64,000 bases of DNA from a virus: the IMG/VR virus record IMGVR_UViG_3300005680_000007, positions 4,017 through 68,016 of that record. One strand, given 5' to 3'. Positions within the stretch are counted from its first letter, which is position 1. The number at the start of each line of letters is the position of its first letter. Position numbers and translations under genes: made by a program. The notes beneath the pieces were generated by a model, which had not been told where the DNA came from, ran no database searches, and saw only the letters and a program-made list of their open reading frames with translations. Shown in pieces: positions 2,875 to 61,211 of this stretch.

Positions 2875-2877
2875 GGC

Positions 2878-4600: not shown

Positions 4601-4618
4601 CTAATTCGCCATATGGTG

Positions 4619-5122
4619 CTATTGAATACGCGGCCCCGGATGCATCTTGAGTCCGATCGCCATGCGCTCCAAGTGATCGAGAATCGCGAATGTCTCATCG
4701 CCGAGCGCAGTGCCACCGCGCGTGCGCGTCCAGTGCGCTCGCGCCTCCGCGAACGTGAAATAACGGCAGCCAGCAATGATGACTGGCGCGCAATCCCTGT
4801 TGGTGGGAGTCACGAGGAATGTGTGGCCATCGCTACGGGTCGCGACGCAAATGCGTGTAGAGACCCGCGCATCGCCGTAGACCCACGCATTGCCGTAGAC
4901 CCGCGCATTGCCGTAGACCCACGCATTGCCGGAGACCCGCGCATTGTCGTAGACCCACGCATCGCCGTAGACCGAAAGGTTTTTTTCGCTCTCGATCCAG
5001 CCGCCTAGTTCGCCGGCAACGATCTCCAGCGCTGCGATGGCCACAACCGCGCGGATGCGATTCAGCTTGACGCCCAATTCGATCTTGGTTTCGCCGGTAA
5101 ATTCATATTTGGCGTTTTTCAT
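4619..5122 (-). CDS. Hexapeptide-repeat (beta-helix type) protein
   Basis: 167 aa counted from ATG 5122 (MKNAKYEF...). Contains YGDAWVYDNARVSGNAWVYGNARVYGNAWVYGDARV. As sequenced the frame stays open upstream to ATG 5377, giving a 252-aa version with a hydrophobic N-terminus. Confidence 0.6.
   Translation of the reverse strand: MKNAKYEFTGETKIELGVKLNRIRAVVAIAALEIVAGELGGWIESEKNLSVYGDAWVYDNARVSGNAWVYGNARVYGNAWVYGDARVSTRICVATRSDGHTFLVTPTNRDCAPVIIAGCRYFTFAEARAHWTRTRGGTALGDETFAILDHLERMAIGLKMHPGPRIQ
4861..4968. repeat. Six tandem 18-bp units (AGACCCRCGCATYGCCGT) inside the CDS
   Basis: Units start at 4861, 4879, 4897, 4915, 4933 and 4951. They encode the (Y/S)G(N/D)A(R/W)V hexapeptides on the minus strand. 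Confidence 0.9.
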
Positions 5123-5393: not shown

Positions 5394-5786
5394 TCACTTG
5401 CTCTGCGCGAAGCCGCGCGATTGAAGTTTTCGCCCTGCTGGCCACGGGTTCACGCGAGCGGGGATCTTCGAGCGCGGCCGGTTGCGCGTCTCGCCGCGGA
5501 TGCGCTTCTGCTTTGCGATCTGCGGAACGTCGATCGTCCGTGTCTTGGCGTCGTGCTCGTCGGTTGGGCGAGGCTCGAGATTCCACGGCGCGTCGGGACC
5601 GCCATCGGCCTTCCGGATCGGCCAGTGGTCGAAGTCAAAGCGCGCCAGAATTTGGGCCTCGGTCATCCCCTTCGCTTCCTCGTGCGAGATCACGCGAACC
5701 AGCGTCCCGTTCTCGTCCGGGCGCATGATGGTGAGCAGCGCCGCGCATAGACGGGTCTTGAGGGGGATGTAGGCACGCTTGCTCAT
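5394..5786 (-). CDS. HNH endonuclease
   Basis: 130 aa from ATG 5786 (MSKRAYIPLKTRL...), overlapping the upstream gene by 4 nt. Carries FDFDHWPIRKADGG...NLEPRPTDEHDAKT. The rest of track ORF 5394-6302 is shadow-type sequence. Confidence 0.65.
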   Translation of the reverse strand: MSKRAYIPLKTRLCAALLTIMRPDENGTLVRVISHEEAKGMTEAQILARFDFDHWPIRKADGGPDAPWNLEPRPTDEHDAKTRTIDVPQIAKQKRIRGETRNRPRSKIPARVNPWPAGRKLQSRGFAQSK

Positions 5787-6379
5787 GCCGCCTCCAGCGC
5801 GCCGCGTGCGGTCAGGTGCAGCCAGAGCAGCTTGGCGCGGGTGAGATCCTCGTGCGCGGTGTGGATGCCTTGTCGGGGCTTGAGGCCGAGGATGGTTTCG
5901 CAGGCGACGTCGAGGCTGGGCCAGCGGTAGCTGCCGGACGGGTGGTCGGACGGAATGCGGCAGAGCGCGGCGCATGCGGGAATGAGATCGACCACCTGAA
6001 TGCCGGGGCGCACCCACATGCGCGGGTCTTTGCGCCGGCGGAGGAGGGCTGACTCCACCACCTTGCGATCGAACCCGACTCCGAAGCCGATCATGCAGTC
6101 GGCCTGAGCGGCGAGGTCGCAGAGGATGGCCAGCGCGGCGATCTCGGAAACGCCGGATCGGGATGCCTGCCGGGTCGAGATGCCATGCACGGCTTGCGCA
6201 CCGGCACGGATCGATCGGCCGTCGGCCTTGATGCGGAGCGAGACGAAATCCAGCGCGGCGCCGTCGTCCGTCGACAGTTCGGCCGCGACCGCGACGATCC
6301 AAGGCTGGCTCGCATCGTCGAGCGGGAGGTCGTCCCTGAGAAGGTCGCTGGTCTCGAGGTCGATCAGGAGCGCGGTCAT
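5783..6379 (-). CDS. DnaQ-like DEDDh 3'-5' exonuclease
   Basis: 198 aa from ATG 6379. Motifs LIDLETSD, GFGVGFD and HTAHEDL. Lies next to RecT. Confidence 0.7.
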   Translation of the reverse strand: MTALLIDLETSDLLRDDLPLDDASQPWIVAVAAELSTDDGAALDFVSLRIKADGRSIRAGAQAVHGISTRQASRSGVSEIAALAILCDLAAQADCMIGFGVGFDRKVVESALLRRRKDPRMWVRPGIQVVDLIPACAALCRIPSDHPSGSYRWPSLDVACETILGLKPRQGIHTAHEDLTRAKLLWLHLTARGALEAA

Positions 6380-46623: not shown

Positions 46624-48945
46624 ATGGGATCATTGTGTAAAAGCGGTCCCGCGACCACCACGACGTCGACCAAGACCAAATCGGAGTCGGCCTATACGCC
46701 TTTCGCGCGCGACGAGATGCAGGACATCTACGGCCGCGTCTGGGAGGCTGGATCGACGCCATACACGCCGTTCACCGGCAATATGGTCGCGGGGCTCAAC
46801 CCGACGCAGCTTGGCGGCATCGACAAGATCACGGGCGCGACGAACTATCTCAACACCGCGGCGAATTACGCGCGCGAGGGCGCAGCGCCGATCTCGGATT
46901 GGGAGATCGAACGCTACATCAATCCGTTCACCAACAATGTCATCGACGCCACGCGGGCGAATTTCGCGGAGAACAATGCCCAGCAGCAGAGCCAGATCAG
47001 GGGCAATGCCGCGCTCCGTGGCGCGCTCGGCGGCGACCGGGCCGGCATTGCGCAGGCGGAAGCGGCGCGGCAGCAGAAACTGGCGCAAGACCCGATCATC
47101 GCCAAGATGCAGCAGGACAGCTACACGCAGGCGCTCGCGGCCGCGCAGGCCGACCGGGCCGCAAAGGCGCAAGGGGCTTATGGCTTCGGCGCGCTGCATT
47201 CCGGTGCGCTTGCCGGCGGCCAGTCTCAGATCGGGGCTGGCTCGCTCGAGCAGGGCGTGGATCAGGCAAGGCTCAATGCCCAGTACCAGGAATTCATGCG
47301 CGCGCAGCAATACCCCTATCAGAATGCGCAATTCCTCGCGTCGGCCGGGCTGCCGCTCCTCACCGCGCAGGGCGGCACCCAGACCGGCCAGAGCAGCGGC
47401 ACCAGCACGCAGGTCCAGCAGGCGGCGCAGCCGAGCGTCTTGCAGCAGGCGGTTGGCCTCGGCACCGCGGCAATCGGCGCGTTCAGCGGCAACCCGTTCG
47501 CGTTCCTCGGCGGCCTGAACAGCGCCGCGGGCGGAATGCCATCGACCGGCGCGACCTACGGCGTCTCGCCAGGGTCTTCCGGCATGGCATCGTTCGGCGG
47601 CGTGCCGTATCCGGTGTTCAACCGCGGCGGCCGCGTGCGTCCCGGCTACCGGAATGGCGGCTTCATCGACCGGGTCAACGAGCTCCGGCAGGCGATGCGC
47701 CGCGGCGGCGCGATCCGGCTTCCCGGCTATGCCGACGGCGGCGAAATTCCGTTCTGGGAGCGCTTCGCGCCGGCCGCGGAAGCCGTCCAGAGCGGCGAAT
47801 TCGATCCGCAGGGGTCGAATTACCCGGCACCCATGGCAATGGCGCCAGAGGCCCCCGCTGAGTCTCCTGCGCTCGCCCGTGGGATCACGCTTCCCCCGCA
47901 GATTGCCAGCCCGGGGGGCTCCGGCCCGATCATGGCTCCGGCCATGCGCCCGGCCATGCAGCCCGCGATCGCGCAGGCGCCAATGGCGGCCGACGCACCG
48001 ACCGATTTCTCCGCGCAGCGGGCATTCCCGCCGCGAGCCGCGCAGCCGGGCGGTGGCCTCTCCGAAGAAGCCCGCATGGCACTCATCGCGGCCGGCCTCG
48101 GCATGATGGCCTCCAAGCATCCAAATGCGGCCGGCGCCATCGGCGAGGGCGGACTGATCGGCATCAAGCAATACACGAGCGGCAAGCAGACCAAAGAGAA
48201 GAACGAATTGGCGGCTCGCAAATTGCTGATGGATGCGGAGCAATTCGCCAAGACCCACGATTTGCGCGGCAAGACGCTGGACGAGACCAAGCGCTACCAC
48301 GACATGACGATCCAGGAGCGCCGGGAGGCGGCTTCCGAGCGGTCGCAGGACCGCCGCGATGCGCTGGCCCGTCATGCTTTCCCTGGGACAGGGAAGGACG
48401 AGGACGGCAACGCCGTGCCGGGGATGTATCGCTACGACCCGGACAAGCAGGACTATGTGTTCAAGCCAGGCGCCGCGATCCAGAAGGGCGGCTCCGGTTC
48501 CGGACGGCCGCCGGCGGTGCTGCAGATCGCAGACGCGATGATCGCCGCGCGCGAAGAGGCCCGCAAGGCCAATCCGAGCCTTCCGCCGCTCAGCCGGGAG
48601 GAGGCGATCAAGTCGGCCCAGCGCGCCCCGCGCGACCGCGAGGACGTCACCACCCGCGAGCGGCTGGCCCAGAACCTCGCCAAGAACGACCCGAGTTTCA
48701 CCATCGACAAGGCGCGCGAATTCTACGGCCTGCCGCCGCGCGTGATGCCGGACAAGAAGCCCGCCGAGAAGGGCCTGTGGGACCGCATGTTTGGCGGCGG
48801 GGACAAGAAGGCCGATGCGCCGAAGCTCAAGCCCATGACGCCCGAAGTCAGCGCCAAGGCGAAAGAAGCCATCGACGCCGGCAAGGACCGCAATGCCGTG
48901 ATCCAGCGGCTGCGTGAAAACGGAATCGACCCGTCCGGACTGTGA
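46624..48945 (+). CDS. Large internal-virion/ejection protein (tape-measure-like composition)
   Basis: 773 aa, Gln/Ala/Gly-rich. Ends in a GTGA overlap with the giant ORF. Confidence 0.45.
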   Translation: MGSLCKSGPATTTTSTKTKSESAYTPFARDEMQDIYGRVWEAGSTPYTPFTGNMVAGLNPTQLGGIDKITGATNYLNTAANYAREGAAPISDWEIERYINPFTNNVIDATRANFAENNAQQQSQIRGNAALRGALGGDRAGIAQAEAARQQKLAQDPIIAKMQQDSYTQALAAAQADRAAKAQGAYGFGALHSGALAGGQSQIGAGSLEQGVDQARLNAQYQEFMRAQQYPYQNAQFLASAGLPLLTAQGGTQTGQSSGTSTQVQQAAQPSVLQQAVGLGTAAIGAFSGNPFAFLGGLNSAAGGMPSTGATYGVSPGSSGMASFGGVPYPVFNRGGRVRPGYRNGGFIDRVNELRQAMRRGGAIRLPGYADGGEIPFWERFAPAAEAVQSGEFDPQGSNYPAPMAMAPEAPAESPALARGITLPPQIASPGGSGPIMAPAMRPAMQPAIAQAPMAADAPTDFSAQRAFPPRAAQPGGGLSEEARMALIAAGLGMMASKHPNAAGAIGEGGLIGIKQYTSGKQTKEKNELAARKLLMDAEQFAKTHDLRGKTLDETKRYHDMTIQERREAASERSQDRRDALARHAFPGTGKDEDGNAVPGMYRYDPDKQDYVFKPGAAIQKGGSGSGRPPAVLQIADAMIAAREEARKANPSLPPLSREEAIKSAQRAPRDREDVTTRERLAQNLAKNDPSFTIDKAREFYGLPPRVMPDKKPAEKGLWDRMFGGGDKKADAPKLKPMTPEVSAKAKEAIDAGKDRNAVIQRLRENGIDPSGL

Positions 48946-51900
48946 CCGACATCTCCTTCGACGACCTCCCGTCGGCAAAACCGGCGGATACCGGCCTTTC
49001 CTTCGACGACCTTCCTGCGGCCGCGCCCGCAGCGGAATCGGGCTATGTGCCGGAAGCGTTGAAGGGCTTCGCGCGCGGCGCGCAGGGCATGGTGACGTCG
49101 CCGCTGCAGGGTGTTGCGGCCGCGCAGTCGCAGGGCCCGGCGGCAATCGAACGCGCCGGACTTTCGGCCGCCATGGACCGCGTCATGGCCGGCGAGGATC
49201 CCGCGCAGGCTGTGGAGAACGTGCGCGCGGCACCCCCGGCGCTGCCGCCGGTCACGGAAACGCCCGGCTGGCATGCCGCCGAGTCCTTCAAGAAAGCGAC
49301 GGACCCGTATATCGCGCCCGCGAAAGGCTGGGAGGACAGCTGGACCGGCGATATAGCTGGCGGCTTTGGATCGGTCGCAGCCGGCATCGGCATGTCCATC
49401 CTCAATCCGGCCGCCGCCATGCTCGCGTTCGTCACGGCCGGCCAGGGCGAAGCGGCCGAACGCGCGGTGAAGGCTGGCGCTACGCCGGAGCAGATCCAGA
49501 CCGCGGCCAGGCTCGGAACGGTCTCGGGCGCAACCGACGTGGTTGACGCGCTCCTGCCGATGATGGGCTCCTACGGCAAGACGCTCGGGCTCATCAAGCG
49601 GGTGGGCTATGGCGCTGTCTCCGGCGCGCTCGCGGAAGGCGGGCAGGAAGGCCTGCAGCAATTCATCCAGAACGCGATCGCGAAGGGCATCTACAAGCCC
49701 GACCAGGACTTGATGGAGGATGTGCCGCGCAGTGCGGCCATTGGCGCGATCGTCGGCGGGAGCATCGGCGGGTTCTCTGGCGGCGTGCAGAAGCCGGGGG
49801 CTGCGCCGGCAGCCGAGGCCCAGCAGTCCGCTGTGCAGCCAACTGCCGGGCAGCCCGCGGCCGACCCGCTCGAAGCCTTGATCGCGCGCGAAGCCGAGTC
49901 GCCGGCGCCGGACAATCCCGAACTCGACGCGCTCCTGTCCGATCTTGCCTCCCGCGCGACGGATTTCTCGGACCGCGCGCGCAGCGGTTCTCCGGTCGCT
50001 GCGCCTGCCCAGGCTGCCGAACCCGCCACCGAGCCGAGCGGGGCGCCGATCGATCCGATGTTCGCAGACCTGCCGGATGCGGAAGAAACCCCGCAGCGCG
50101 GCCCGAAAATCACCTATCTGACGCCGGATGCCATCCAGACCGACGCCGAGCGCTTCCAATATAAGGGTGGTGCCGACAAGGAAGGCGTCACCAGCGCGCT
50201 CAAGGACGTCAAGAAATGGGATGACCGTCTCGCCCCGCCTATTCTCGCGTGGGAGTCGGAAGACGGCAGCCTCTACGTCGTCAACGGACACCAGCGCACG
50301 GCGCTCGCCAAGCGCGCCAGCGCCGCAGGTCAGCCGGACGTCTATGTCCCGGCCCGCATTATGCGTGAGGCTGACGGCTATACCCCCGAGTATATGCGCG
50401 CCCTCGGCGCCTTCCAGAACATCGCGGAGGGCACCGGGACGGCGCTCGATGCGGCGAAGGTGCTGCGCGCTAATTCGGCCGACCTCGCAGATGTGCTGCC
50501 GCCGCTGCCGCCGCGCAGCCAGCTTGTCCAGAACGCAAAGGGGCTGGCCGACCTGTCCGACGAGGCGTTCGGCATGGTGGTCAACGACATCGTGCCGGAA
50601 GCCTACGCCGCGCAGGTTGGCAACATCCTGAAAGAGCCTGCCGAGCAGATGGCGGCGCTGGACGTTCTGGCGAAAGGCCAGCCCGCCAACGTCGACCAGG
50701 CGCGGATCATGGTCGAGGACATCCGCAACGCCGGATTCCTGAAAGGCGAACAAACCGGATTGTTCGGTGCCGAGGAATTTGCCCGCTCGCTTGTGCCCGA
50801 AAGGGCGCGTATACTGGACCGCGCCGTCAAGACGCTGCGCAAGCTCGGCTCCACGTTCAAGACCGCGGTGGAGCAGGAAGGCACGCTGGCCGAGGCCGGC
50901 AACAAGCTCAAGCGCGCCGCCAACGAAAGGGCGCAGACCGAGAACGAAAGGCTCGCAGAGGTTCTTGCCAATGACGGGACGCGGAAAGGACCAATCTCCG
51001 ATGCGCTTAGTGACGCCGCAAGAGCGCTCGCCGACGGCAAGCCCATCAATGCCGTCACGTCGCAATTCCTCTCCCAGGTTCGATCTCTCACGCGAGGAAC
51101 TCGTCCGGGCGTACAACGAAGCGCTGAGACTGACCGCGATGGACATGCGCGAGAACCGCAGCAGGCCGCGCTCTACTCGCTCGGACGAGGACAGCAACGT
51201 CCTGTAGCGCCGAAAGTTCGCGCTGAAATCGAGGCCATGACGGCGCGCAATGCGCCGCTGGATGAAATCGTCGCGCACCCTGCCGTGTCCCGCGCCGTCG
51301 CGGAAATGCGCCGCCGCATCCCGACCGGTACACCGGAACAATTGCGCGATCCGGCATGGCAAGCGAAGCGCGTCTATGACTTCGGCGGCAAGCCGGTCAG
51401 AGGATTCGATGCTGCTGCTGATCGTCTGACGGAAAAGGCTCGTTCCTATGCGGGCGGCAAGGTGGAGAACGGGCGCCATGCCGTACTCGTGCTTGGGCCT
51501 CCTGCGGCTGGCAAATCTACCTTCGCCAACCCGATCGCAAAGGCGATGGGCGCGGCCGTGGTCGACGCCGACGATGCCAAACTGGTCATACGCGAATATC
51601 AGGGCGGTGTCGGCACCGTCGCGGTTCATGAGGAAAGCTCTGCCCTGGCCGGTCGTGTGGCCTCGCGCCTGATCGGCGAGGGAGCCAATCTGGTTTTGCC
51701 GAAGGTGGGTGCCGCCGAGGCCAGCATCCGCAATCTGAAGAAGGCGCTGGAGGCCAAGGGCTACACGGTCGACGTCGCCCATGTGGCTGCAAATCCTGAG
51801 ATTTCCGGCCGCCGGAACATTGGCCGCTGGCTCGAAACGGGACGCCTCGTCGACCCGGATTATATTCGGGAAGTGGGTGACAAGCCGCGGGAAGTCGCCT

Positions 51901-54900
51901 ATATTCTGAGTAGAGAGGGTAATGACTATGTCGATGTCGATACCTCCCGAAGCCCCCCGAAAATCGAAGGAAAAGGCCCGCTCGCGAAGCTTCTCCGAGA
52001 TCGAGGAGAGCGCGGAGAGCCTGTTTCTCGAGGAGATGGAGCGCAAGCCCTCTTCTCGCTCGGGCGACGGAAAGGCGTAACGGATCAGGTCGATCTGTTC
52101 GGCGGCAGGGGAGACCAGTATGTCCTGCCGGGCGCCGAGAAGATCAGCGATGCCGAACTGGCGCAGCGGCGCGCGGATGCCCCGCTGCAGCCCAAGAAGC
52201 CGCAGAAGCCGGCCGAACTATTCTCGAACGACGATGCAAGCCAGCTAGGGCTTGGTCTGGAGCCGAAAGATGGACGCCGAGACGTTCGCCAGGGAGCACA
52301 AGGAGTATCTCCAAAACAACCGGCCGGACGTGCTCAAGGGCTTTCAGCGCGAAGGCGACCTGAGCAGGTATCTCTCTTCGATTGGGGAGCAGGCCGAAAG
52401 CCGGATGATCGACCTGCACGGCCAGATGAACAAGCAGGCGGGGGTGAACGACCTGCCGTACCTGCAGAAGGTGGCCGCGTTACAAAACCACCATCAATCG
52501 GCGCTCGAAATCGTCCGCGACGAAATCATCCTGCAGCCGCGGGACTAGCCGAGGCGATCAAGAAGATCGAGGAGCGTTCGCGCCTCAACTATCGCATCAC
52601 CGATTCCGATCGCATCGGCGAAGGCGGACCCAAGCAGAAGGTCCGCGACAATATCGAAGCCGTTCGCGTCCTGCGCCAGATCGAGGAAGAAGGCCGCGGC
52701 CCGACTCCCGAGGAAAAGGCGAAGCTCGTCAAGTATGTCGGCTGGGGCGCGTTCGCGCAGGATGTGTTCGCACCCCACAAGCAGGATTGGAAGAAGGAAC
52801 GCGATGCGCTCCGCTCGCTCCTGACCGACGCCGAATACGATTCCGCCAAAGCCTCGACCCTGAATGCCCACTACACGTCGCCGGAAGTCATCCGCGGCAT
52901 GTGGGACGTGATGGATCATTTCGGGTTTTCGGGTGGCCTTGCGCTCGAGCCGTCGGCCGGCATCGGCCATTTCATCGGTCTCACCCCCGACCACGTCGCG
53001 CCCAAGACGGCATGGACGGCGGTTGAACTCGACGCCATCACCGGACGCATCGCCGCCGCGCTCTATGGCGGCTCCGAGGTTCACGTCGAAGGCTATCAGG
53101 ATCTCAAGCGACCGTCGAATTACTACGACCTCGTCATCTCCAACGTGCCGTTTGGCGACTACAACATCACCGAAAAGCCCTACGGCCGCTATCCCATTCA
53201 CGACTTCTTCTTCGTCAAGTCGCTGGACAAGGTGCGCCCGGGCGGCATCGTCGCGTTCATCACGTCCCGCTACACTATGGACCGCATGGATCCCGCGACG
53301 CGGCGCGAATTCGCGAAGCAGGCTGACCTCGTCGGCGCCATCCGTCTCCCGGGCGGCCGCAAGGGCGCGTTCGCCGGCAATGCCGGAACCGAAGTGACGA
53401 CCGACATCATTTTCCTGCGCAAGAAGGTGCCGGACGAAAAGCCTTATCCGCAGAAGCCATGGCTAGAGACCAAGGAGATCAAGACACCGGACGGCCCGGT
53501 CAAGATCAACGAGTATTTCGCCGCCAATCCACAAATGATGATGGGCGAAATGCGGCTGACCGGATCGATGTATTCGGACAAGGAGCCGGTGCTGGTCGGG
53601 ACCGCGGAGGGATTGCGAGAGCGCATTGCTCAGGCCGCGCGCGACAACATGGAGGCCGGAGCATTCCTGCCGCGCGGCGTGCCGGAGCCGGTCAATATCG
53701 ATAGTTCGGACGTCGATCCGACGCTGAAAGAAGGCGCGCTGTTCGTGAAGAACGGCAAGGTCTACCAGCGCCAGAATGGCGTTGGCGTCGAGCAGAAGCT
53801 TTCCCCCGACGACGTCGACCGCGTCAAGCGGCTGTCCGAGATGCGGGGCACGGTGAACGACTTGCTCGCGGCGCAGCTGGGCGCGAGCGACAAGGGCACG
53901 CCGGCGGACCTGCGCCGTTCGCTTGCCAAAACCTACGAGGCTTTCGTCAAGAAGTGGGGCCCGATCAATCTCGAGGAGCGGACGGTCACGTCCCGCGTCA
54001 ACAAGGAAGGCGAAAACGTCGTCATTGTCCGCACGCCGAACCTGACCCCGTTCAAGGGCGATCCGGATGCATGGAAGGTCTCGGCGATCGAGAAATACGA
54101 TCCAGAGACGGGCAAGGCGACGCCAGCCGCGATCCAGACCAAGAACGTGATCGAGGCACCGACCGAGCGCCAGATCAACGGGCCGGCCGATGCGCTGGCT
54201 GCGTCGCTAGACAAGCATGGTGCTGTGGACGTCTACGACATCGCGGACATGCTGGGCACGTCGGTCGAGGATGCCGTCAAGAGCCTGGGCGATACGGTGT
54301 TCGTCGATCCGGACGGCCGCCAGTATGTGACCGCCGATCAGTACCTTTCCGGCAATGTCGTGAAAAAGCTGGAAGAGGCGCGCGCGCTTGCGCAGGATGA
54401 CGCCTCGTTCCAGCGCAACGTGGACGCCTTGGAGAAGGTGCAGCCCGTTCCGCTGGAGCCGTCCGACATCACCGCGCAATTCGGTGCCCCGTGGGTGCCG
54501 GAGCACGTCTATAACGATTTCATCAAGGATGTGCTGGGTGGTAGCGGGGAGGTCAAGAAGGTCCCGCTGACGGGCGAATGGCGCGTCACGATCAACGCAG
54601 CATCCCGAGATGCTCGCGCGAAGTATGCGACCGATCGCGTGCCGATCGACAAGATATTCAAGGCCGCGATCAACAACCAGCAGATTACGGTGTGGGATCA
54701 GGTCGCGGACGACAAGCGGGAGGTCAACCAGAAAGAAACCGAAGCGGCCCGGATCAAGACCGAGGCGATGAAAGAAGCCTTCGCGGGCGATCCGAACCTC
54801 GGGATTGACGGATGGGTGTGGCAGGACGGGGCCCGCGCCGCCGAGCTCGCCGCCATCTACAACCGGACCTACAACAATCTCGTCCCCACCAATTTCGACG

Positions 54901-57900
54901 GCTCGCACCAGACGCTGCCCGGCCTCAACCGCATGTTCGCCGATCGCAAGCACCGGCTGGATGCTATCTGGCGCATGGTCACGAAGGGCAACACGCTGCT
55001 CGCCCATGTGGTCGGTTCCGGCAAGACCGTTACCATGATCGCCGGCGGCATGGAGATGAAGCGGCTGGGCCTGATCAACAAGCCCGCCTATGTGGTGCCG
55101 AACCACATGCTCGAGCAGTTCGCGCGGGAATTCATCGAAGCCTACCCGAATGCCAAGATCATCGTCGCCGAAAAGGACGAGATGACGCGGGACAACCGCA
55201 AGGCCTTCTTGGCCAAGGTGGCGGCAAACGACTGGGACGGCGTCGTTATCACGCATGACGCCTTCGGCCGCATCAACATGGCGAAGGAATTCCGCCAGCA
55301 ATTCATCCGCGACCAGATCGCCGAACTTGAGCGGGTGAAGACCGCGGAGGCGAAGGAGGCGGGCAAGGACTCGCCCACGGTCAAGGCGCTGGAAAAGGCC
55401 AAGAAGCGGCTGCAGGACAAACTGCAGAAGCTTTTGAACGAGGATCGCAAGGACGAGGGCACGTCGTTTGAGGAGAGCGGCGTCGACTTCCTGTTCGTCG
55501 ACGAGGCGCACAAGTTCAAGAACCTCGCATTCGTGACGCGGCTGCAGCGGGTGAAGGGGCTTGCGCAGGGCGAGAGCCAGCGCGCCGAGGACCTGTCCCT
55601 GAAAATCCGCTACCTCGACCAGAAGCGCCCCGGCCGCTCGGCGGTTTTCGCAACCGGCACGCCGGTATCGAACACGATGGCCGAACTCTGGACCATGCAA
55701 CGCTACCTGCAATACGACAAACTGCGGGAGGCCGATCTTGACACGTTTGATGCATGGGCATCGACCTTCGGCAAGGTCGTCAACAACATGGAATTGTCGG
55801 CGGACGGCCGCACCCTGAAAGAGGTTTCATCCTTCTCCCGCTTTGTGAACGTGCCGGAACTGGTCTCGCTCTATTCCGAGATTGCCGACACCAAGACCGC
55901 GGACATGCTCAACCTGCCGCGGCCGCAGGTGGTGGCGCCGGACGGCAAGCCCGGCATCGAGATTGTGAAGGTCTCGCCATCGGAAGCCGAAGAGCGCTAC
56001 ATTGAAGGCCTGGTGAAACTGGCCGAGGAATTGAAGGGCAAGCGGCCGGAGCCCGGCAAGCCCAATATGCTGAGCGTGGTCGGGCTGGGCCGCAAGGTCG
56101 CGACCGATGCGCGCCTTGTCGGTCTGCCCGTCAATGAGGGCGGCAAGATCGCCACGGCCGCGCGCAACATCTTCCAAATCTGGAAGGATGGCAAAGAGCC
56201 CGGCACCGTGCAGATGGTGTTCCTCGACATGGGCGTGCCGCAGACCAAGGCGAAGCCGAAAAAGGCGGACCCGGATGGCGACGTCACGATCACGGACACT
56301 CCGGACCCGATCTTCGCGAAATACAACGTCGATCTCTATGCTGACCTGAAAGCGCGCCTTGTCGCCATGGGCGTGCCGGCCAAGCAAATTGCCACGATCC
56401 ACGAGGCGACCGACGACCAGAAGAAGGCCAAGCTGTTCTCGCGCGTGCGATCGGGCGATGTTCGCGTGATCATCGGCTCGTCGGAGAAGATGGGCGTCGG
56501 GACCAATGTGCAGGACCGGCTCATTGCGATGCACCATTTGGACGCGCCGTGGAAGCCCGCGGAAGTGGAGCAGCGCGACGGCCGCATCGTGCGCCAGGGC
56601 AACAAAAATCCGAACGTCCGCATCCTTCGCTATGTGACCGAGCGTTCGTTCGACGCATTCATGTGGCAGAAGCTGGACACAAAATCGAAATTCATCGGGC
56701 AGGTGCTGTCCGGTGCAAAAGGCGCGCGTCACGCCGAGGACATTGACAATCCGCTGCCGGAAGCAGCGGAGATGAAGGCCGCGGCGTCTGGCGACCCGCG
56801 CATCATGGAGTTGGCCGAACTCGACCGGAAGGTCCGGCAACTGGCGGCGCAGAAGCGTGTGTTCGACGCATCCAAGGCCCGCGCGGTGTCCGAACTCGCC
56901 ATGACCAAGGGCCGCGTCAAGCAGTATGAGGATGCGCTGCCGGCGGCCGAGATGGACGCGGCGAAGGTCGAAGATCTGTCGGGAGACAAGTTCAAGGTCA
57001 CGATCCAGGGCAAGGAATACGACGACCGCCGCGAGGCCGGAAAGGTCATTCTCGATGCATTGCTCGCGCGCGATGCCCGTTCCTATTATGCGCCGAAGCG
57101 GATCGACATCGGCACGGAAATGTCGGGCTTCCCGCTCGAAGTTGTGGCGCATGGCCGTTATGGGGACGGCGCGGCCTATCTGGCCGTGACGCCCGTGGTG
57201 CAGGCCAGCAAGAATTACAGCGGCTTGTCGGACATAACGATCAACGACCAGACAGATCCAGCCGGCCTCATGCTCAGGTTTGGCAATCTCCTCAAGAGCA
57301 TCGCTCTGGAGCCGGACCGGATCGAGCGCGTGCTGAAAGAAGAGCGCGCAAACGTCCCGCGGCTGGAGAAGGTCGCGGGCGAAACCTGGCCGAAGGATGC
57401 CGAACTGCAGCGCGCGCGCGCCGATCTGGACGCGCTGACCAAGGAATTGACCGGGGCGAAGGAGGAGAAGCCTGCGGAGGCGGCTCCTGCAACTGACGCG
57501 GTGGATACTGAAGGCTGGACGGCAGAGTCCCTCGTGGGACCGGATGCCGGGTTCACGCATTGGCAGATTAGGGACGCCGCCGGGAACCCAGTCACGAAAA
57601 TCGTCGGTGGCACCGCAGAGTCCGCAATCCGAAAGGCAGCGGAGAAACCCGAGGCGCTGTTCGACATCTCGCGCGACCTGACACGGCTCGCCCAGAAGGA
57701 CCGCGGGGAGATCGAGCGCCGCATTACCGCAATCGCCCGGCAGGTCATGGGGGCGCATGTGAGGGTGGCGTTTCAGGACGCGATTCCGCTGCCGGACGAT
57801 GCTGTCGAAGCGTGGGGCGCGAAGGCCAAGGGCCTCTATACCGCCGCAGGACGGTATATCCCGGCGCATCGGCTGATCGACATCGCCATGGCTGACCCGA

Positions 57901-60900
57901 TGTACCGGGATCAGGTCAGCACCGCCTATCACGAGCTTTTCCACGGCGCGGAAAACCTGCTGCTGCGTGACGCGGAAATGGCCGTGCTCAAGGCAGAGGA
58001 CGCGGAGTTGCGGCAGATCGCGGCCGACTATACCGGGATGAGCCGTGCGGAAGCGGCTGAACTCGCGGGCTTCGAGGTCCGCGCGATCGCGGCGCAGGCC
58101 TATGCGGACATGCGCAACCAGCCGCGCTCGGTCGATCTCCTGTCCGGAGCGGCCCGCAAGGTGCTGGAAAAGCTGCGCCAGATGTTCAAGCGCATCCGCA
58201 ACGTCATGCGCGGGCTGGGCTACCAGACGTCGCAGGACATCTTCTCGGACTTCTATGAAGGCCGCATGGCGGCGCGGGCTGCGAAGGAACGGCCGTTCGT
58301 GCGGGAAGCGGCGTCCGTCGTGCCCGGCGGTGGCACACCCACCCCGCAGCAGCGCCGCTCCGTCATGGAGCGCATGGACATGCGCCCGCTGGACCGGGCA
58401 TTGCGGGTGCCCTTCGACGTGTTCGGCGGCACCAACCAGAAGGGCGAGTGGGACCCGGGCCTGCGCCTCTCCGAGAAGGCGGCGAAGATCATCAAGGACG
58501 CCAAGTTCTCGGGTGGCGGCAAATTCCACTGGCTCAATCCCACGCTGGAACGCGCGCGTGCCGGACTGATTGACCGATACGGTCTCGACCCCGCCTATGT
58601 CGAGCGGGAGCGCCAGCGGGCGCTGGACGAGCGCCGCATCATGGGCGTGGTCCCCGAAGTGATGCAGACATTGAAGGAGAACGACGTCGGGTCCGCCGAA
58701 GCGATCGTTTTGCAGAAGATCCTGACTGGCGAGCAAATCTCCGACGCCAACCTCGAAGCGCTCGCCGCGCCGATCCGGCAGGCCATTGATGTATTCGGGC
58801 AGGAGGCGGTCGACCTCGGCCTCCTCTCTCAGGAATCCTTCGACCGCAACAAGGGCGCCTATCTGCATCGCGTCTACCGCAAGCACGAGACCGACCAGAA
58901 CCCGCTGGTGAAGTGGGTCTCCCAGATGGCGTCGACCCGCCGCAAGAAGATCATCGGCAACCAGTTCAAGGGCCGGGGCCTCTGGAAGGAAGTCGCAGCG
59001 AGCACGGTCAACCAGGCACCGAAGGGCTCCAAGGTCTCGATCGGCGGCACGCAATGGGAAGTCCGCGGCTACAAGGGTAAGAAGGCCGTGCTCTGGCGCG
59101 ACTATACGCCGGCAGAGCGCGAGCGCATGGGCGAAATCCTCGACGCCCGCTACACCATCGCCAAGACCTATATGGTCATGGCGCACGATCTGGCGACCGG
59201 CCGCTTCTACAAGGACATCGCGGACAATCCGGAATGGTCGTCGGATCAGGAGCCAGCGTCCGGCGCGTGGAAGAATGCTGCGGAATACGGCCGGCACTGG
59301 GCCGACCCCGACATCGAATGGGTCAAGGTCCCCGACACCAAGATCGCGTCCAGCAACACGCCCCGCTATGGAGCGCTTGCCGGCCGGTTCGTGCGCGCTG
59401 AAATCTGGCGCGACATAAACGAACTTGAGCAGATGCAGAGCCCGACATGGTGGAACACCATCCTCACGCAATGGAAGCTCAACAAGACCGCGCGCTCCCC
59501 CGTCACGCACATGAACAACGTCATGTCCAACGCCGTGTTGATGGACATGGCGGACGTGCGCGCTCGCGATCTCTACCGCGGCATCCGCTCGATGGTGAAG
59601 CAGGACGCGCTCTACAAGGAGGCGGTGGACAACGGCGCCTTCGGCGGCGACATGATCAGCCAGGAAATCCGGGACAACGTACTCCGGCCGATCCTCGAGG
59701 AGATCGAGAACCAGGCGCAGGCCAAGTCCCCGGTCGGCATGGTAGAGAAGGTCATGGCCGGGCTGTTCTCCAAGGGCGCGCTGGTGGGCGCTGCCTATGG
59801 TGCTGCTGGCGGTGCGTTGGTCGGCGGGCCGGTCGGTGCGGTGGCCGGTGCGGGCGTCGGGGCCGTGGCCGGCGCGGCCGCGCGCAAGCCGATCGACAAG
59901 TTCGACGAGAAGATGCTGCAGGCCTACCGGCTCGAGGATGAAGTCTTCCGCATGGCGACCTATACGCGCCGGATCGACCAAGGCCTGACGCCGCGGGAGG
60001 CCGCGATTGAGGCCAACGAACAATTCCTCGACTATGACATCCGGGCGCCGTGGGTGAATGCGGCGCGGCGCACGGTGCTGCCGTTCATCGCCTATACCTA
60101 CCGCGCGACCCCGCTGGTCGCGAAGATGGTCATGACGCGGCCGTGGAAACTGGCGAAGTATGCGACCGTGGCATTCGTCCTCAATGCGCTGGGCTATGCT
60201 CTCTTCCCCGGCGATGAGGACGACGAGCGCCGCACGCTGCGGGAGGAAGAGCAGGGGCGGACGTGGATCGGCGCCCCGCGCATGATCCGCACGCCGTTCG
60301 GGGATGCCAACGGCAACCCGCTGTTCCTCGACGTGCGCCGCTGGATCCCGTCCGGCGACATCTTCGACATGAACCAGGGGCAGGGCGCCGTGCCGGTCCC
60401 GGCGCCGCTGCAATTCGGCGGACCAATCATGCTCGGCGCGGAACTGGCCCTGAACAAGCAGGCCTTCACCGGCCGCCCGATCGTCAACACCAAGACCGAC
60501 GATATTTGGGATCGAGCCGGCAAGGTCGGGGATTGGGCGTGGAAGGCATGGATGCCGGGCGCTGCGTGGATCCCCGGCTCGTGGTACTGGGAGAAAACAG
60601 GGGATGCCCTTGCCGGCGCACGCGATCGCTCCGGCCGCGCCTATAGCCTCCCCCTCGCGCTGTCGAGCTCGGTCGGCGTCAAGCTCAAGCCGCACGAGAT
60701 TGCCGAAGGCAAGCGCCAGATCCAACTGGAATTCGACCGCGTGAACCGGGAACTGAGCTTTGAGCGCTCCCGTCTCGCACGGGACCGATCGCAGGGCAAG
60801 ATTTCGGATGACCGCTACAAGAGCGATCTCGCAGCCCTCGACCGCAAACGCAAGCATTACAACGAGGAACGCCGCAAGCGGCTGACCGGCGAGGACCTAG

Positions 60901-60908: not shown

Positions 60909-61211
60909 CGGCCTGCCATCGCGATAGAGCAGCGGCGGCAATTCATCGTCGAACCCGGCCTTGTAGGCCGCGCAGTAATATGCCTGAAAGGTGCATTGAT
61001 CGCGGTCGCAGTCGTCGCGCTTTTCGAGCAGTTCGCGGCATCGAACGGTCGCGAGCGGTTCGGAAAGGCACTTGTCCTCAATCTGCCGGATGGCGGTAGC
61101 GGCCGCGTCGCTGTAGGGCGGCGCACCCTGCAGGACCCGCTTCGCAAGCCCGTAAAGCATCGGCGCGCTCAATAGGGCGGCGACGACCAGAATCGCTCGA
61201 AGGAATGCCAT
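60897..61211 (-). CDS. Counter-oriented secreted/membrane Cys-rich protein
   Basis: 104 aa from ATG 61211 (MAFLRAILVVAALLSAPMLYG... then six Cys). Its 3' end overlaps the giant-ORF stop by 12 nt. Confidence 0.5.
   Translation of the reverse strand: MAFLRAILVVAALLSAPMLYGLAKRVLQGAPPYSDAAATAIRQIEDKCLSEPLATVRCRELLEKRDDCDRDQCTFQAYYCAAYKAGFDDELPPLLYRDGRPLRC

What the first reader, a model, noticed from the sequence alone, without database searches (positions are those of the whole stretch)
51049..52548. Coding frame inside the giant ORF hops to +1 three times around the kinase module; one hop is a complete SD+ATG...TAG gene for a TnpV-like protein
Seen: the 3,988-codon ORF is read in frame 0, and almost everywhere its third codon positions are G/C-rich. 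In three short stretches the periodicity moves to frame +1.

(a) 52270-52548.
- By hand count, 78/92 third positions are G/C in +1, against 32/100 in frame 0 over 52248-52547.
- The +1 ORF has GGAG (52259-52262) 7 nt before its ATG.
- It is opened by a +1 TAG at 52246-52248 and closed by TAG 52546-52548. Counted from just after the first stop through the second, the span is exactly 300 nt, so frame 0 is preserved.
- Its product MDAETFAREHKEYLQNNRPDVLKGFQREGDLSRYLSSIGEQAESRMIDLHGQMNKQAGVNDLPYLQKVAALQNHHQSALEIVRDEIILQPRD reads like a normal helical protein. From memory it fits the TnpV family pattern (YL...RP......L..G.L...L..I..QA......L...M.K..GV..L.........N.....A.EIV..E.I).
- Frame 0 here reads as an R/P/G/A-rich string (GRRDVRQGAQGVSPKQPAGRAQGLSARRRPEQ...).

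(b) 51078-51155: 21/26 G/C in +1 against 9/26 in frame 0. The +1 ORF runs from ATG 51049 to TAG 51207 and has no SD.

(c) 51922-52080: 40/52 in +1 against 27/53 in frame 0. GAGAGGG precedes ATG 51922 and the stop is TAA 52080.

ORFs (b) and (c) are both 159 nt and bracket the zeta-like kinase module (51237-51920). Both +1 stops are created by a GTA valine codon of frame 0, which is unusual in this G/C3-rich DNA. In each case that codon sits just after a repeated frame-0 motif AL(Y/F)SLGR.

After each +1 stop, normal frame-0 coding resumes. No ATG, GTG or TTG start occurs in frame 0 in 52081-52248 or in the roughly 300 nt read after 52548 (the first frame-0 GTG and ATG lie about 240 and 340 nt downstream). 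The MTase-helicase part can therefore only be made by reading through in frame 0.

Inference, three alternatives:
- Small genes are overprinted on disordered linkers of a polyvalent protein. This would be dual coding, and the products could be partner or antidote proteins for the kinase or MTase modules.
- The ORF carries paired compensating frameshifts or assembly indels.
- Recoding takes place.

I know of no description of nested genes inside phage polyvalent proteins.
Basis: partly seen in the sequence, partly recalled or inferred. Interest (0 to 1): 0.85.

Follow-up and report, generated by a model that had tools for sequence, protein, structure and literature searches.

The report
Small gene nested inside giant phage gene
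A 92-codon TnpV-like gene is written in a second reading frame inside a 3,988-codon phage anti-restriction gene, and the same two-frame arrangement recurs in phages, plasmids and integrated elements of many bacterial phyla, so it is real dual coding rather than a sequencing error.

Summary
Within the giant ORF 48942-60908, GC3 periodicity leaves frame 0 only at the three stated places, always to +1.

**Hop (a), 52270-52548.** This is a genuine Pfam TnpV gene (E=1.4e-11) with its own SD and ATG.
- Across about 90 homologous loci, 65 of 66 TnpV-like ORFs lie in frame +1 of the methylase-helicase ORF.
- In 65 of 66 the host frame stays stop-free through them. The mean chance expectation is 0.07.
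- The nested ORF is also present but unannotated in phage Bcep22 gp75 and Vibrio phage VvAW1 gp01.
- The TnpV frame carries the amino-acid constraint. Frame 0 there is a Pro/Gly/Arg-rich linker, often holding a QL[SD]LF motif.

**Hop (b).** It encodes a +1 helix conserved in seven relatives. How it is expressed is unresolved.

**Hop (c).** It is weakest. Frame 0 there is conserved coding sequence, and the window's +1 ORF has only positional analogues.

Assembly indels and a double frameshift are rejected. I found no prior description. The function of the small protein is unknown.

The parts
48942..60908 (+). Giant ORF (3988 aa, frame 0): DarB-like polyvalent anti-restriction gene at the end of the virion-structure module of a phage or prophage
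   Evidence: The ORF is listed. Pfam finds Zeta_toxin, SNF2/ResIII/Helicase_C and Gly-zipper domains. tblastn hits are annotated 'DarB-like antirestriction' in Bcep22, Ralstonia phages and VvAW1. Upstream genes encode terminase, portal, tail fibre and virion proteins.
50100..51047 (+). Conserved N-terminal module of the giant protein (frame 0). It looks ParB-like by eye only; Pfam gives no hit.
   Evidence: It is 57-60% identical to viral loci L086-L090 and to proteins P0063-P0068.
51049..51207 (+). Hop (b): +1 ORF of 52 codons. The conserved core 51085-51159 reads LSREELVRAYNEALRLTAMDMRENR. The TAG stop lies inside a frame-0 GTA codon.
   Evidence: GC3 is 21/26 in +1 against 9/26 in frame 0. 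The +1 peptide and its stop are conserved in L086, L088, L089 and L090. In the lower-GC relatives L091 and L106 the same site is the longest +1 open run in the gene, with P=0.0008 and 0.006. There is no SD and no conserved start codon.
51477..51878 (+). Zeta-toxin-like kinase domain (frame 0), aa 846-979 of the giant protein
   Evidence: Pfam PF06414, E=5.6e-14. Homologues are P0069-P0090.
51922..52080 (+). Hop (c): +1 ORF of 52 codons, preceded by GAGAGGG. The TAA stop lies inside a frame-0 GTA codon. This is a candidate nested ORF only.
   Evidence: GC3 is 40/52 in +1 against 27/53 in frame 0. Frame 0 over 51933-52079 is homologous to the zeta tails of P0069 and P0070 (z=6.7 and 2.6), whereas the +1 translation is not. 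+1 ORFs of 64-69 aa occur at the same position in L091 and L106 (P open 0.018 and 0.11), but they show no similarity to the window's ORF.
52086..52100 (+). Frame-0 motif QVDLF, a near match to the QL[SD]LF clamp-binding consensus, in the linker upstream of the nested gene
   Evidence: The motif was found. Relatives carry an exact QLDLF or QLSLF at the equivalent place. The consensus QLxLF is taken from PMC4549789.
52259..52262 (+). Shine-Dalgarno-like GGAG, 7 nt upstream of the nested ATG
   Evidence: It is visible. SD-like 4-mers precede the nested starts in 35 of 60 loci against a background of 0.20, p=6e-11.
52270..52548 (+). Hop (a): nested TnpV-like gene in frame +1, 92 aa. Its TAG stop lies inside the frame-0 CTA codon of the conserved peptide G-L-A-E-A.
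   Evidence: Pfam TnpV, E=1.4e-11. There are 61 HMMER homologues. The same +1 nesting is seen in 65 of 66 loci. dN/dS is 0.4-0.8 in this frame against 1.1-1.6 in frame 0. The AlphaFold2 model has pLDDT 95.5 and is a four-helix fold. Gene callers call this ORF on the independent Logan contig.
52249..52547 (+). Frame-0 read-through linker lying over the nested gene. It is rich in Pro, Gly and Arg and contains QVSLF at 52365-52379.
   Evidence: The chance of it being stop-free is P=0.04-0.05 in the window. It is stop-free in 65 of 66 loci. The hydrophobic fraction is 0.12 against 0.29 for TnpV, and P+G is 0.28 against 0.09. PEQLSLFGG is conserved here in L006, L096, L098, L099, L100 and L101.
52548..54980 (+). 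N6-adenine-methylase-like part of the DarB-like module (frame 0). It starts directly at the nested gene's stop, and the next frame-0 start codon is at 52764.
   Evidence: It is 67-75% identical to L002, L003 and L006 from the first codon after the TAG. The motifs EPSAGIGHF and NVPFG are shared with P1 DarB.
54981..56600 (+). SNF2/ResIII/Helicase_C helicase part of the DarB-like module (frame 0)
   Evidence: Pfam domains span aa 2014-2553.

Best explanation
The 12-kb gene is a virion-type 'DarB-like' polyvalent anti-restriction gene. It is read in frame 0 from GTG 48942 to its stop.

**The nested gene (a).** A complete small gene for a four-helix TnpV-family protein lies on the stretch that joins the upstream modules to the methylase-helicase module. 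It is in frame +1, at 52270-52548. Both frames are used. Ribosomes translating the giant ORF read straight through and produce a Pro/Gly/Arg-rich flexible linker, which in this clade carries a QxSLF motif resembling the sliding-clamp-binding consensus. Other ribosomes start at the internal GGAG...ATG and make the 92-aa protein. That protein ends at a TAG hidden inside a rare frame-0 Leu codon, placed exactly where the conserved methylase sequence begins.

**What is shown.**
- The arrangement (always frame +1, host frame kept free of stops, internal SD) is conserved in phages, plasmids and chromosomal elements of many phyla.
- The TnpV frame bears the amino-acid constraint.
- Frame 0 is constrained mainly to stay open.

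**What is inferred.**
- Translation starts independently at the nested ATG.
- The small protein works together with the methylase-helicase, for example as a chaperone, packaging or transfer adaptor, or regulator.
- The linker must be translated because it tethers an N-terminal QL[SD]LF motif, or upstream modules, to the enzyme.

**Hops (b) and (c).** Hop (b) is a second conserved +1 coding segment: a helix of about 25 aa ending at a conserved +1 stop after the N-terminal module. It is expressed either as a tiny ORF or as a +1-frameshift tail. I put the probability that it is functional at about 0.7. Hop (c) may be a third nested ORF lying over a conserved frame-0 tail. I put that at about 0.4.
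For: **Conservation of the nesting**
- (1) Across L002-L085 plus the window, 66 loci have a TnpV-like ORF upstream of the methylase. In 65 of them it is in frame +1.
- Of the loci that miss the TnpV HMM, eight (L004, L005, L021, L025, L026, L048, L055 and L082) still carry a 93-110-codon +1 ORF of the same pattern in the leader before the methylase; L026 has one short +2 ORF (33 codons) and the other seven have none.
- (2) The host frame is stop-free across the nested ORF in 65 of 66 loci. Synonymous reshuffling of the nested ORF gives a mean probability of 0.07, with 0.046 for the window and below 0.01 for most Firmicutes. The third frame has 2-14 stops. For VvAW1 the host frame was open in 0 of 5000 shuffles.

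**Signs of independent expression and of selection**
- (3) An SD-like motif precedes the nested start in 58% of loci against a background of 20%, p=6e-11. Examples are gaaggagg in Bcep22 and gaaaggag in Firmicutes.
- (4) The nested stop sits in the same place in the conserved frame-0 peptide G-L-(A/E), using the rare codons CTA or TTA, in the window, L002 and L003.
- (5) dN/dS is 0.4-0.8 in the TnpV frame, 1.1-1.6 in frame 0 over the same bases, and 0.2-0.3 in the flanking methylase.
- (6) The Firmicute nested ORFs match the full Pfam TnpV model at E=1e-35 to 1e-36. The window's product folds with pLDDT 95.5.

**Evidence that frame 0 is translated**
- (7) Frame 0 over the overlap looks like a linker: hydrophobic fraction 0.10 against 0.31, and P+G 0.27 against 0.08, across 65 loci.
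- QL[SD]LF occurs in 33 of 89 leaders and 0 times in 120,691 downstream residues.
- (8) No frame-0 start codon exists between 52080 and 52763, yet conserved methylase sequence begins at 52548.
- (9) The sequence is identical in an independent assembly.
- (10) The giant homologue of phage JC1 is detected in virions by mass spectrometry, so the long frame is translated in that family (PMC9144972).
Against: - There is no expression data for either frame in this organism. Translation of the nested ORF is inferred from sequence alone.
- dS is saturated (0.7-1.4), so the dN/dS values are rough.
- The loci are not phylogenetically independent, so the 65 of 66 count overstates the number of independent tests.
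- My start-codon assignments in some Firmicute loci are approximate.
- The nested proteins of pEMT1 and p12969-2 are not detectably TnpV. Bcep22 and VvAW1 match only my own HMM (E=2e-6 and 7e-4), not Pfam.
- P1 darB, the founding member of the family, has no nested ORF. The small protein is therefore not indispensable to a DarB-type enzyme.
- Foldseek and PDB sequence searches give no functional clue.
- For (c) the window's +1 ORF has no detectable homologue, and its being open is expected by chance (P=0.75).
Confidence: 0.82

Rival explanations
1. Paired compensating frameshifts from sequencing or assembly errors (or recent mutations) put a normally in-frame TnpV domain out of frame. Frame 0 happens to stay open because the DNA is GC-rich.
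For: In GC-rich DNA off-frames are often open. For the window alone the chance of a stop-free frame 0 is not negligible: 0.04-0.05 for (a), 0.09 for (b) and 0.34 for (c). One related long-read contig (L091) does carry a homopolymer frameshift, but elsewhere in the gene.
Against: The same +1 arrangement is present in 65 of 66 independently assembled loci, including isolate genomes and reference phages Bcep22 and VvAW1. An independent assembly is identical over both junctions. No homologue was found with TnpV in frame with the methylase. Low-GC loci keep the host frame open at P<0.01.
Confidence: 0.01
2. Programmed recoding: ribosomes shift +1 into the TnpV frame and shift back (or bypass) before the TAG. 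The TnpV segment is then a domain of the giant protein rather than a separate product.
For: The nested stop abuts the first conserved methylase residue, and there is no frame-0 start codon nearby.
Against: - Under this model frame 0 would not need to be open across the whole nested ORF, yet it is in 65 of 66 loci.
- A +1 stop lies only 7 codons upstream of the nested ATG (52246-52248). This leaves 21 nt for a shift, and no slippery motif is conserved there.
- SD plus ATG is conserved in front of the ORF.
- There is no Rfam element at E<=1 in 48800-61000.
- Two efficient shifts in one gene are without precedent.
Confidence: 0.03
3. A +1 frameshift makes truncated isoforms. At (b), and possibly at (a) and (c), a fraction of ribosomes slips +1 and terminates at the +1 stop. 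The result is a short protein with a conserved C-terminal helix, while the rest of the ribosomes make the full polyprotein. This would resemble dnaX or the phage tail chaperones G/GT.
For: - For (b) the conserved +1 peptide follows directly on conserved frame-0 sequence (FL..AR.L).
- The start codon of (b) is not conserved in position. L086 has no ATG upstream of the conserved peptide, and the window has no SD.
- The +1 stop is conserved inside rare GTA or ATA codons.
Against: - No conserved slippery heptamer or stimulator was seen in the six aligned junctions.
- There is no Rfam hit.
- An ATG lies 12-29 codons upstream in five of six loci.
- No protein in a 5.8-billion-sequence search joins the module and the helix in one frame.
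- For (a), the strong internal SD/ATG makes independent initiation the simpler reading.
Confidence: 0.15
4. Only one frame is functional. Either the TnpV frame is a fossil of a captured gene that now merely supplies linker-coding DNA, or the long frame-0 read-through is not biologically relevant and the real genes are separate.
For: No expression data exist. Automatic annotation pipelines split the locus into a small gene plus a truncated helicase.
Against: - A fossil would not keep a Pfam-grade TnpV profile across phyla (E down to 1e-36), dN/dS below 1, an SD/ATG, a stop at a fixed position and a confidently folding sequence.
- Separate genes would not keep the host frame open.
- Separate genes would also leave conserved methylase residues, and an upstream QL[SD]LF motif, without any start codon of their own.
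Confidence: 0.05

Closest known systems
Embedded spanin genes Rz/Rz1 of phage lambda and of Bcep22-like phages (Rz1 lies wholly inside Rz, in the +1 frame)
   Same: A complete gene with its own start lies entirely inside another gene of a phage, on the same strand and in the +1 frame. Both products are made. The embedded class is also mentioned for phage JC1 in PMC9144972; the lambda details are from established knowledge.
   Different: - Here the host frame is a flexible linker inside a 4000-aa multi-enzyme protein, not a folded partner protein.
- The nested gene is the frame under the stronger amino-acid constraint (dN/dS 0.4-0.8, against 1.1-1.6 for frame 0) and belongs to a Pfam family (TnpV) named after a gene of clostridial transposons.
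- The pairing is conserved across phages, plasmids and integrated elements of many phyla.
- No physical or functional link between the two products has been shown.
P1 DarB and 'DarB-like antirestriction' giant virion proteins (Bcep22 gp75, JC1 gp69, VvAW1 gp01)
   Same: The methylase plus SNF2-helicase core is the same: 39-42% identity over 400 aa, with shared EPSAGxG and NVPFG motifs. The position at the end of the virion module is the same. The JC1 homologue is found in virions.
   Different: P1 darB has no nested ORF. Bcep22 and VvAW1 do have one, but it is not annotated. The window's protein adds N-terminal modules, including a zeta-like kinase.
Polyvalent proteins of phages and conjugative elements (Iyer et al. 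2017, PMC5512222)
   Same: It is a multi-domain 'toolbox' protein with swappable modules. The slot after hop (b) holds zeta in the window but a RelA/SpoT-like module (my reading of the sequence) in L003.
   Different: That survey does not mention TnpV, overlapping genes or frameshifts. It worked on protein sequences, where a +1 ORF is invisible.
TnpV of clostridial transposons Tn4451/Tn4453 (Pfam PF14198)
   Same: It belongs to the same sequence family. The window scores 44.8 bits, and Firmicute nested ORFs score 121-125 bits over the full model.
   Different: The name-giving TnpV is, to my knowledge, a free-standing gene of unknown function in a 6-kb transposon. The copies studied here are overprinted inside a methylase-helicase gene.
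Programmed frameshift products such as dnaX tau/gamma and the phage tail chaperones G/GT
   Same: Hop (b) would resemble these if its +1 helix is added to the upstream module by a shift followed by early termination.
   Different: No slippery site or stimulatory structure was found. The direction would be +1, not -1.

Membership tests
Pfam TnpV (PF14198) | Sequence match above the curated gathering score | tested here: met
   The window 92-aa product scores 44.8 bits against a cut-off of 27, E=1.4e-11, over model positions 25-111. L003 and P0002 also pass.
Pfam TnpV (PF14198) | Known biochemical function shared with characterised members | not testable with these tools
   The family has no established function. 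Foldseek against PDB and BFVD gives no hit at E<0.001, and the PDB sequence search finds only designed proteins.
Same-strand nested (overprinted) gene pair | One complete ORF lies inside another in a different frame | tested here: met
   52270-52548 (+1) lies inside 48942-60908.
Same-strand nested (overprinted) gene pair | Both frames are maintained by selection | tested here: met
   For the nested frame: profile conservation and dN/dS of 0.4-0.8. For the host frame: stop-free in 65 of 66 loci against a mean chance of 0.07, plus flanking conserved motifs that have no start codon of their own.
Same-strand nested (overprinted) gene pair | The nested gene has its own translation-initiation signals | tested here: met
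   GGAG lies 7 nt before the ATG. SD-like motifs are enriched at 58% against 20%, p=6e-11. This is sequence-level evidence only.
Same-strand nested (overprinted) gene pair | Both proteins are detected | not testable with these tools
   Only the long product of a homologue (JC1 gp69) has published mass-spectrometry support. There are no data for the small product.
DarB-like anti-restriction / polyvalent protein | N6-adenine methylase fused to an SNF2-type helicase in one large polypeptide | tested here: met
   The helicase domains are found by Pfam. The methylase part is identified by homology to annotated DarB-like proteins and by shared motifs with P1 DarB. No Pfam or NCBIfam methylase model hits it.
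DarB-like anti-restriction / polyvalent protein | Virion-associated, and protects incoming DNA from restriction | not testable with these tools
   The only support is genomic position after virion genes and the literature on homologues.
Programmed ribosomal frameshift site | Conserved slippery sequence with or without a stimulatory element at the frame junction | tested here: not met
   No shared heptamer is present at the aligned junctions of (b) in six loci. Only a 21-nt window is available at (a). There is no Rfam match at E<=1.
Beta-sliding-clamp-binding motif (QLxLF / QL[SD]LF) | Pentapeptide matching the consensus in a flexible region | tested here: inconclusive
   The window has QVDLF and QVSLF, with Val rather than Leu at position 2. 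Relatives have exact QLDLF or QLSLF: 33 of 89 leaders, and 0 in 120,691 downstream residues. The consensus is taken from PMC4549789. Binding to the clamp was not tested.
Zeta toxin / epsilon antitoxin pair (as an explanation of ORFs b and c) | A small antitoxin homologous to epsilon next to the zeta kinase | tested here: not met
   The zeta domain is present. ORFs (b) and (c) match no Pfam or NCBIfam family. (b) also occurs in relatives whose next module is not zeta.

The most novel reading that the evidence does not exclude
A TnpV-like small protein is an obligatory, co-inherited partner of DarB-type methylase-helicases. Its gene has been kept overprinted, always in frame +1, on the flexible tether that links a sliding-clamp-binding QL[SD]LF motif or upstream modules to the enzyme. 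This holds across phages, plasmids and integrative elements of Proteobacteria, Verrucomicrobiota, Acidobacteriota, Firmicutes and other phyla. If so, it would be one of the most widely conserved long same-strand gene overlaps in bacteria and their mobile elements. Polyvalent genes would then hide further small +1 genes, such as (b) and (c), at their module junctions, and these would have been missed by protein-level surveys and by annotation pipelines.
Probability: 0.5. Interest if true: 0.85.

Novelty: new variant of a known kind. Interest (0 to 1): 0.75.

Why it matters
- **Rarity.** Long, fully nested same-strand genes that are conserved across phyla are very rare in bacteria, and such overlaps are usually dismissed as annotation noise.
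- **Strength of the evidence.** Here the comparative evidence is unusually strong, and it touches a widespread class of anti-restriction weapons.
- **Missing component.** An unrecognised small component, the TnpV-like protein, probably belongs to the DarB-type system.
- **Annotation errors.** It explains why pipelines truncate these helicases at internal start codons or split them into pieces. One example is pEMT1, where the annotated start is 531 nt downstream of the likely one.
- **A use for TnpV.** It gives the orphan TnpV family a concrete genomic partner.
- **A testable host link.** It suggests that the enzyme carries a clamp-binding-like motif on a tether.
- **Blind spot of protein surveys.** Protein-based surveys of polyvalent proteins can miss genes written in a second frame.
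- **Experimental access.** Bcep22, JC1 and VvAW1 are cultivable systems in which all of this can be tested directly.

Tried and rejected
**Searches that gave little or nothing**
- DNA searches of the plasmid and phage collections with 50700-52900 matched only the methylase part.
- A word-indexed protein search with the 92-aa product found only itself. The exhaustive HMMER search was needed to find relatives.
- Scans of the metagenome and viral collections with the zeta module found nothing.
- An alignment of diverse TnpV sequences was too divergent to scan with.
The test of (c) therefore rests on protein tails and on two distant loci.
- Literature searches for TnpV, polyvalent proteins, DarB-like genes and overlapping or embedded genes found no description of this nesting.

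**Tests that came out negative**
- A chimeric query (frame-0 module plus the +1 helix of b) looked for relatives with both parts in one frame. None of the 6 hits covers the helix.
- The pEMT1 nested protein was compared with TnpV. BLASTP found nothing, and hhalign matched only a 16-residue motif at 1.8% probability. Homology is not shown.
- The pEMT1 zeta protein was tried as a frame probe for (c). It is too divergent.
- A low-stringency tblastn of the (b) and (c) peptides gave only noise.
- The window's (c) peptide was compared with the +1 ORFs of L091 and L106. The similarity is not significant (z=0.4-0.7).
- Structure searches gave no clue to function.
- Rfam, NCBIfam and PHROGs gave no functional annotation for the small ORFs.

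**Ideas considered and dropped**
- The equal length of (b) and (c), 159 nt each, as a sign of a repeated cassette. Their peptides are not similar, and relatives differ in length.
- Splicing or bypassing of a 300-nt insert. Neither would require frame 0 to stay open.

Full report

Yes. The window carries one ORF of 3988 codons, 48942-60908. I computed GC at third codon positions for all three phases in 90-nt windows across the whole ORF. Averaged over the ORF, GC3 is 0.80 in frame 0 and 0.68 at the phase that would be third positions of +1. The maximum leaves frame 0 by more than 0.2 only at 51072-51281, 51942-52091 and 52212-52571, plus one isolated window at 51402. The move is always to +1.

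- (a) 78/92 against 32/100
- (b) 21/26 against 9/26
- (c) 40/52 against 27/53

The other stated features are also as described:
- the SD-like GGAG
- the bracketing +1 TAGs, 300 nt apart
- the two 159-nt ORFs
- the GTA codons that create the +1 stops
- the absence of any frame-0 start codon between 52080 and 52763

GTA accounts for 11 of 282 Val codons in the gene, and 6 of those 11 lie in the hop regions. CTA accounts for 6 of 293 Leu codons, and 3 of those lie at or next to the nested gene. ORFs (b) and (c) match no Pfam, NCBIfam or PHROG family.

**2. Context**

The window is a phage or prophage. Upstream genes encode a terminase large subunit, a portal, a tail fibre, virion proteins and a DnaB-like helicase. 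The giant gene sits at the end of the structural module.

Its core is homologous (39-42% over 400 aa) to proteins annotated 'DarB-like antirestriction' in Burkholderia phages Bcep22, BcepIL02 and DC1, in many Ralstonia phages and in Vibrio phage VvAW1. It shares the EPSAGxG and NVPFG methylase motifs with P1 DarB. Pfam adds a zeta-toxin-like kinase, SNF2/ResIII/Helicase_C and a glycine zipper. It is therefore a polyvalent protein in the sense of Iyer et al. 2017.

**3. Hop (a) is not an error**

A Logan assembly of run SRR2082602 is 100% identical to window 52106-55217, which includes both junctions. More importantly, the arrangement recurs in unrelated assemblies.
- The best homologue of the 92-aa product (63% identity) lies on a metagenome contig in frame +1 of an ORF that is open over the whole contig.
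- An IMG/VR contig (67% identity in the methylase) shows the same, with the nested TAG in the same frame-0 peptide G-L-A-E-A.

I then fetched 80 genomic loci with a methylase alignment and searched all stop-to-stop ORFs with a TnpV profile.
- 66 loci have a hit on the same strand upstream of the methylase.
- In 65 of them the hit is in frame +1.
- The loci come from Alphaproteobacteria, Verrucomicrobiota, Acidobacteriota, Chloroflexota, Clostridia, Bacteroides and Synergistaceae, among others.

In the Gram-negative groups the nested stop abuts the methylase (0 to about 30 nt). In Firmicutes it lies 0.4-3.7 kb upstream but still inside the same long ORF. Those Firmicute ORFs are full-length canonical Pfam TnpV (E=1e-35 to 1e-36).

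Eight loci that miss my profile still have a 93-110-codon +1 ORF with the same sequence pattern in the leader before the methylase. Seven of them have no +2 ORF there, and L026 has one short one (33 codons). In addition:
- Plasmids pEMT1 and p12969-2 have a nested 101-aa +1 ORF with a GC3 hop. NCBI's pipeline annotates it as hypothetical and truncates the helicase at a downstream ATG.
- Bcep22 gp75 contains an unannotated +1 ORF (NC_005262.3 52337-52660, SD gaaggagg, profile E=2e-6).
- VvAW1 gp01 contains one too.
- P1 darB does not.

**4. Are both frames selected?**

Host frame. I reshuffled synonymous codons of each nested ORF, keeping its protein sequence and the local codon usage.
- The host frame would be stop-free with a mean probability of 0.07: 0.046 for the window, below 0.01 for most Firmicutes, and 0 of 5000 for VvAW1.
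- It is stop-free in 65 of 66 loci, while the third frame has 2-14 stops.
- The conserved methylase sequence starts at the nested stop with no start codon of its own.
- In the short Verrucomicrobial versions the ORF begins M..QQLDLF, runs through the nested gene and only then reaches the methylase.

Nested frame. The evidence is Pfam-grade conservation across phyla, and dN/dS of 0.4-0.8 against 1.1-1.6 for frame 0 over the same bases and 0.2-0.3 for the flanking methylase (dS is saturated, so these values are rough). SD-like motifs precede 58% of nested starts against a 20% background (p=6e-11). The AlphaFold2 model is a confident four-helix fold (pLDDT 95.5).

Frame 0 over the overlap has the composition of a flexible linker: hydrophobic fraction 0.10 against 0.31, and P+G 0.27 against 0.08.

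These results reject the alternatives as follows:
- Errors are excluded by the conservation.
- A double frameshift, bypassing or splicing would not need an open frame 0.
- A fossil TnpV would not keep its profile, SD, ATG and stop.
- No Rfam family matches the gene at E<=1.

**5. A reason for reading the linker**

The frame-0 leader or linker carries QL[SD]LF in 33 of 89 loci (40 with a looser pattern). There are no occurrences in 120,691 residues of the downstream giant ORFs.
- In Verrucomicrobiota the motif precedes the nested gene.
- In the window's clade PEQLSLFGG lies inside the overlap, opposite TnpV's most conserved SYLSSVGEQA.
- In Firmicutes QLSLF or QLTLF follows the nested stop.
- The window has QVDLF (52086) and QVSLF (52365).

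QLxLF, with QLSLF as the full consensus, is the published beta-clamp-binding motif (PMC4549789). Whether these peptides bind the clamp is untested. Still, a conserved short motif that has to stay attached to the enzyme explains why the frame is kept open.

**6. Hop (b)**

Five IMG/VR relatives (57-60% identity in the N-terminal module) show the same hop at the same place. The +1 peptide is conserved:
- window: LSREELVRAYNEALRLTAMDMR
- L086: LDPYNMALLTLAMDMR
- L088: LTPEKDVDNYNQALLLAAMNLR
- L089: LSEADRERAYDQAIYLTALNIR
- L090: LSEAEHVQAYRQALMDTASDLR

In every case a +1 stop lies inside a rare GTA or ATA codon. The frame-0 reading is Gly/Pro/Ala-rich and poorly conserved, and the module that follows differs between phages.

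In two lower-GC relatives (L091 at 42% GC, L106 at 47% GC) the longest +1 open run of the whole gene lies exactly here: 95 and 126 codons against medians of 10 and 18, with P=0.0008 and 0.006. The +1 coding of (b) is therefore real.

Its mode of expression is open.
- An ATG lies 12-29 codons upstream in five of six loci, but not at a fixed position. The window has no SD.
- No slippery site is conserved, and no database protein joins the module and the helix in one frame.

**7. Hop (c)**

This is the weakest of the three.

Frame 0 over 51933-52079 is significantly similar to the C-terminal tails of the closest zeta modules, sharing the pattern xEGxGPLAxLxRxRG (P0069 z=6.7, P0070 z=2.6). The +1 translation is not similar to them. 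Frame 0 is therefore conserved coding sequence here, not a mere linker.

On the other hand:
- L091 and L106 have their second-longest +1 open run at this position (89 and 69 codons stop-to-stop; P=0.018 and 0.11). The ATG-initiated ORFs in them begin MAT.E.TT.
- The window's ORF has an SD-like GAGAGGG and a depressed frame-0 GC3.

The window's peptide shows no similarity to those ORFs, and its being open is expected by chance (P=0.75). L006, L096 and L100 carry a different +1 ORF family (..VAGKYGDLGLA..) at the equivalent junction. In protein P0009 that family is fused in frame to TnpV. I rate (c) as a plausible but unproven third nested ORF.

**8. Known or new?**

Nested +1 genes are classical in phages. 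Rz1 inside Rz is one example, and it is also present in the Bcep22 group. I found no description of a gene nested in a DarB-like or polyvalent gene.
- The polyvalent-protein survey mentions neither TnpV, overlaps nor frameshifts.
- The JC1/Bcep22 paper treats the gene as a single CDS.
- The reference records do not annotate the ORF.
- Three further full-text searches were negative.

The library does not cover subscription journals, so absence is not proof.

The function of the small protein remains unknown. There is no structural or sequence relative with a known role. Its invariable linkage to the methylase-helicase suggests a partner role, but P1 DarB works without a nested copy.

**9. Verdict**

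It is a new and unusually well-conserved instance of a known phenomenon. It has practical consequences for annotation and for understanding DarB-type anti-restriction systems.

Noticed in passing
window 52086-52100 and 52365-52379; L044 about 5650-5700; L049 just after 3739; L096, L098, L100: Frame-0 leaders and linkers of DarB-like genes carry a QL[SD]LF pentapeptide, the beta-clamp-binding consensus. It occurs in 33 of 89 loci and never in 120,691 residues downstream. In the window's clade it lies inside the overlap, opposite TnpV's most conserved motif.
   Followed up: partly
L093 4690-5013 (Bcep22 NC_005262.3 52337-52660); L094 3597-3926 (VvAW1): Reference phage genomes carry an unannotated +1 ORF of 107-109 aa with a strong SD inside their 'DarB-like antirestriction' CDS.
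   Followed up: yes
L004 5548-6079 (pEMT1 NZ_CP026110.1) and L005 (p12969-2): The annotated 'DEAD/DEAH box helicase family protein' starts at an internal ATG. The ORF really opens at ATG 5548, which has an SD, and reads through the annotated 101-aa 'hypothetical protein'. That protein is in frame +1 and is not detectably TnpV.
   Followed up: yes
L006 about 150-345; L096 about 4480-4700; L100 about 3730-3960; protein P0009: A second family of +1 ORFs (..MARSMKRVAGKYGDLGLARRARDL..) lies upstream of the TnpV ORF at a module junction. In P0009 it is fused in frame to TnpV.
   Followed up: partly
window 51237-51920 compared with L003 about 2700-3000, L088 about 6110-6260 and L086 about 6100-6260: The slot after ORF (b) holds different modules in different phages: zeta kinase here and in L091 and L106, a RelA/SpoT-like module in L003, and others elsewhere. 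Hop (b) therefore marks a module-swapping boundary. The module names for the relatives come from reading the sequence only.
   Followed up: no
L091 about 4680-4690: An A5 homopolymer frameshift splits the zeta domain in a pilon-polished long-read contig. It looks like an ordinary assembly error, which contrasts with the conserved hops.
   Followed up: partly
L103 1434-1946; L097; L102: Some metagenome copies are broken or free-standing. In L103 the TnpV frame runs into the linker frame. L102 has a truncated TnpV. In L097 the overlapping frame is closed.
   Followed up: no
window 48942-48945: The giant ORF's GTG start overlaps the stop of the upstream 773-aa ORF (46624-48945) by 4 nt (GTGA), which suggests translational coupling.
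   Followed up: no
window 48723-52046 (-) and 55827-60857 (-): Very long antisense ORFs (1107 and 1676 aa) lie opposite the giant gene. They are most likely GC-rich shadow ORFs.
   Followed up: no
Foldseek BFVD hit Q8W6J4_2: The best viral structural match of the TnpV model is a segment of a large phage protein (probability 0.95, TM 0.65, but E=0.9). It could be an in-frame TnpV-like domain.
   Followed up: no
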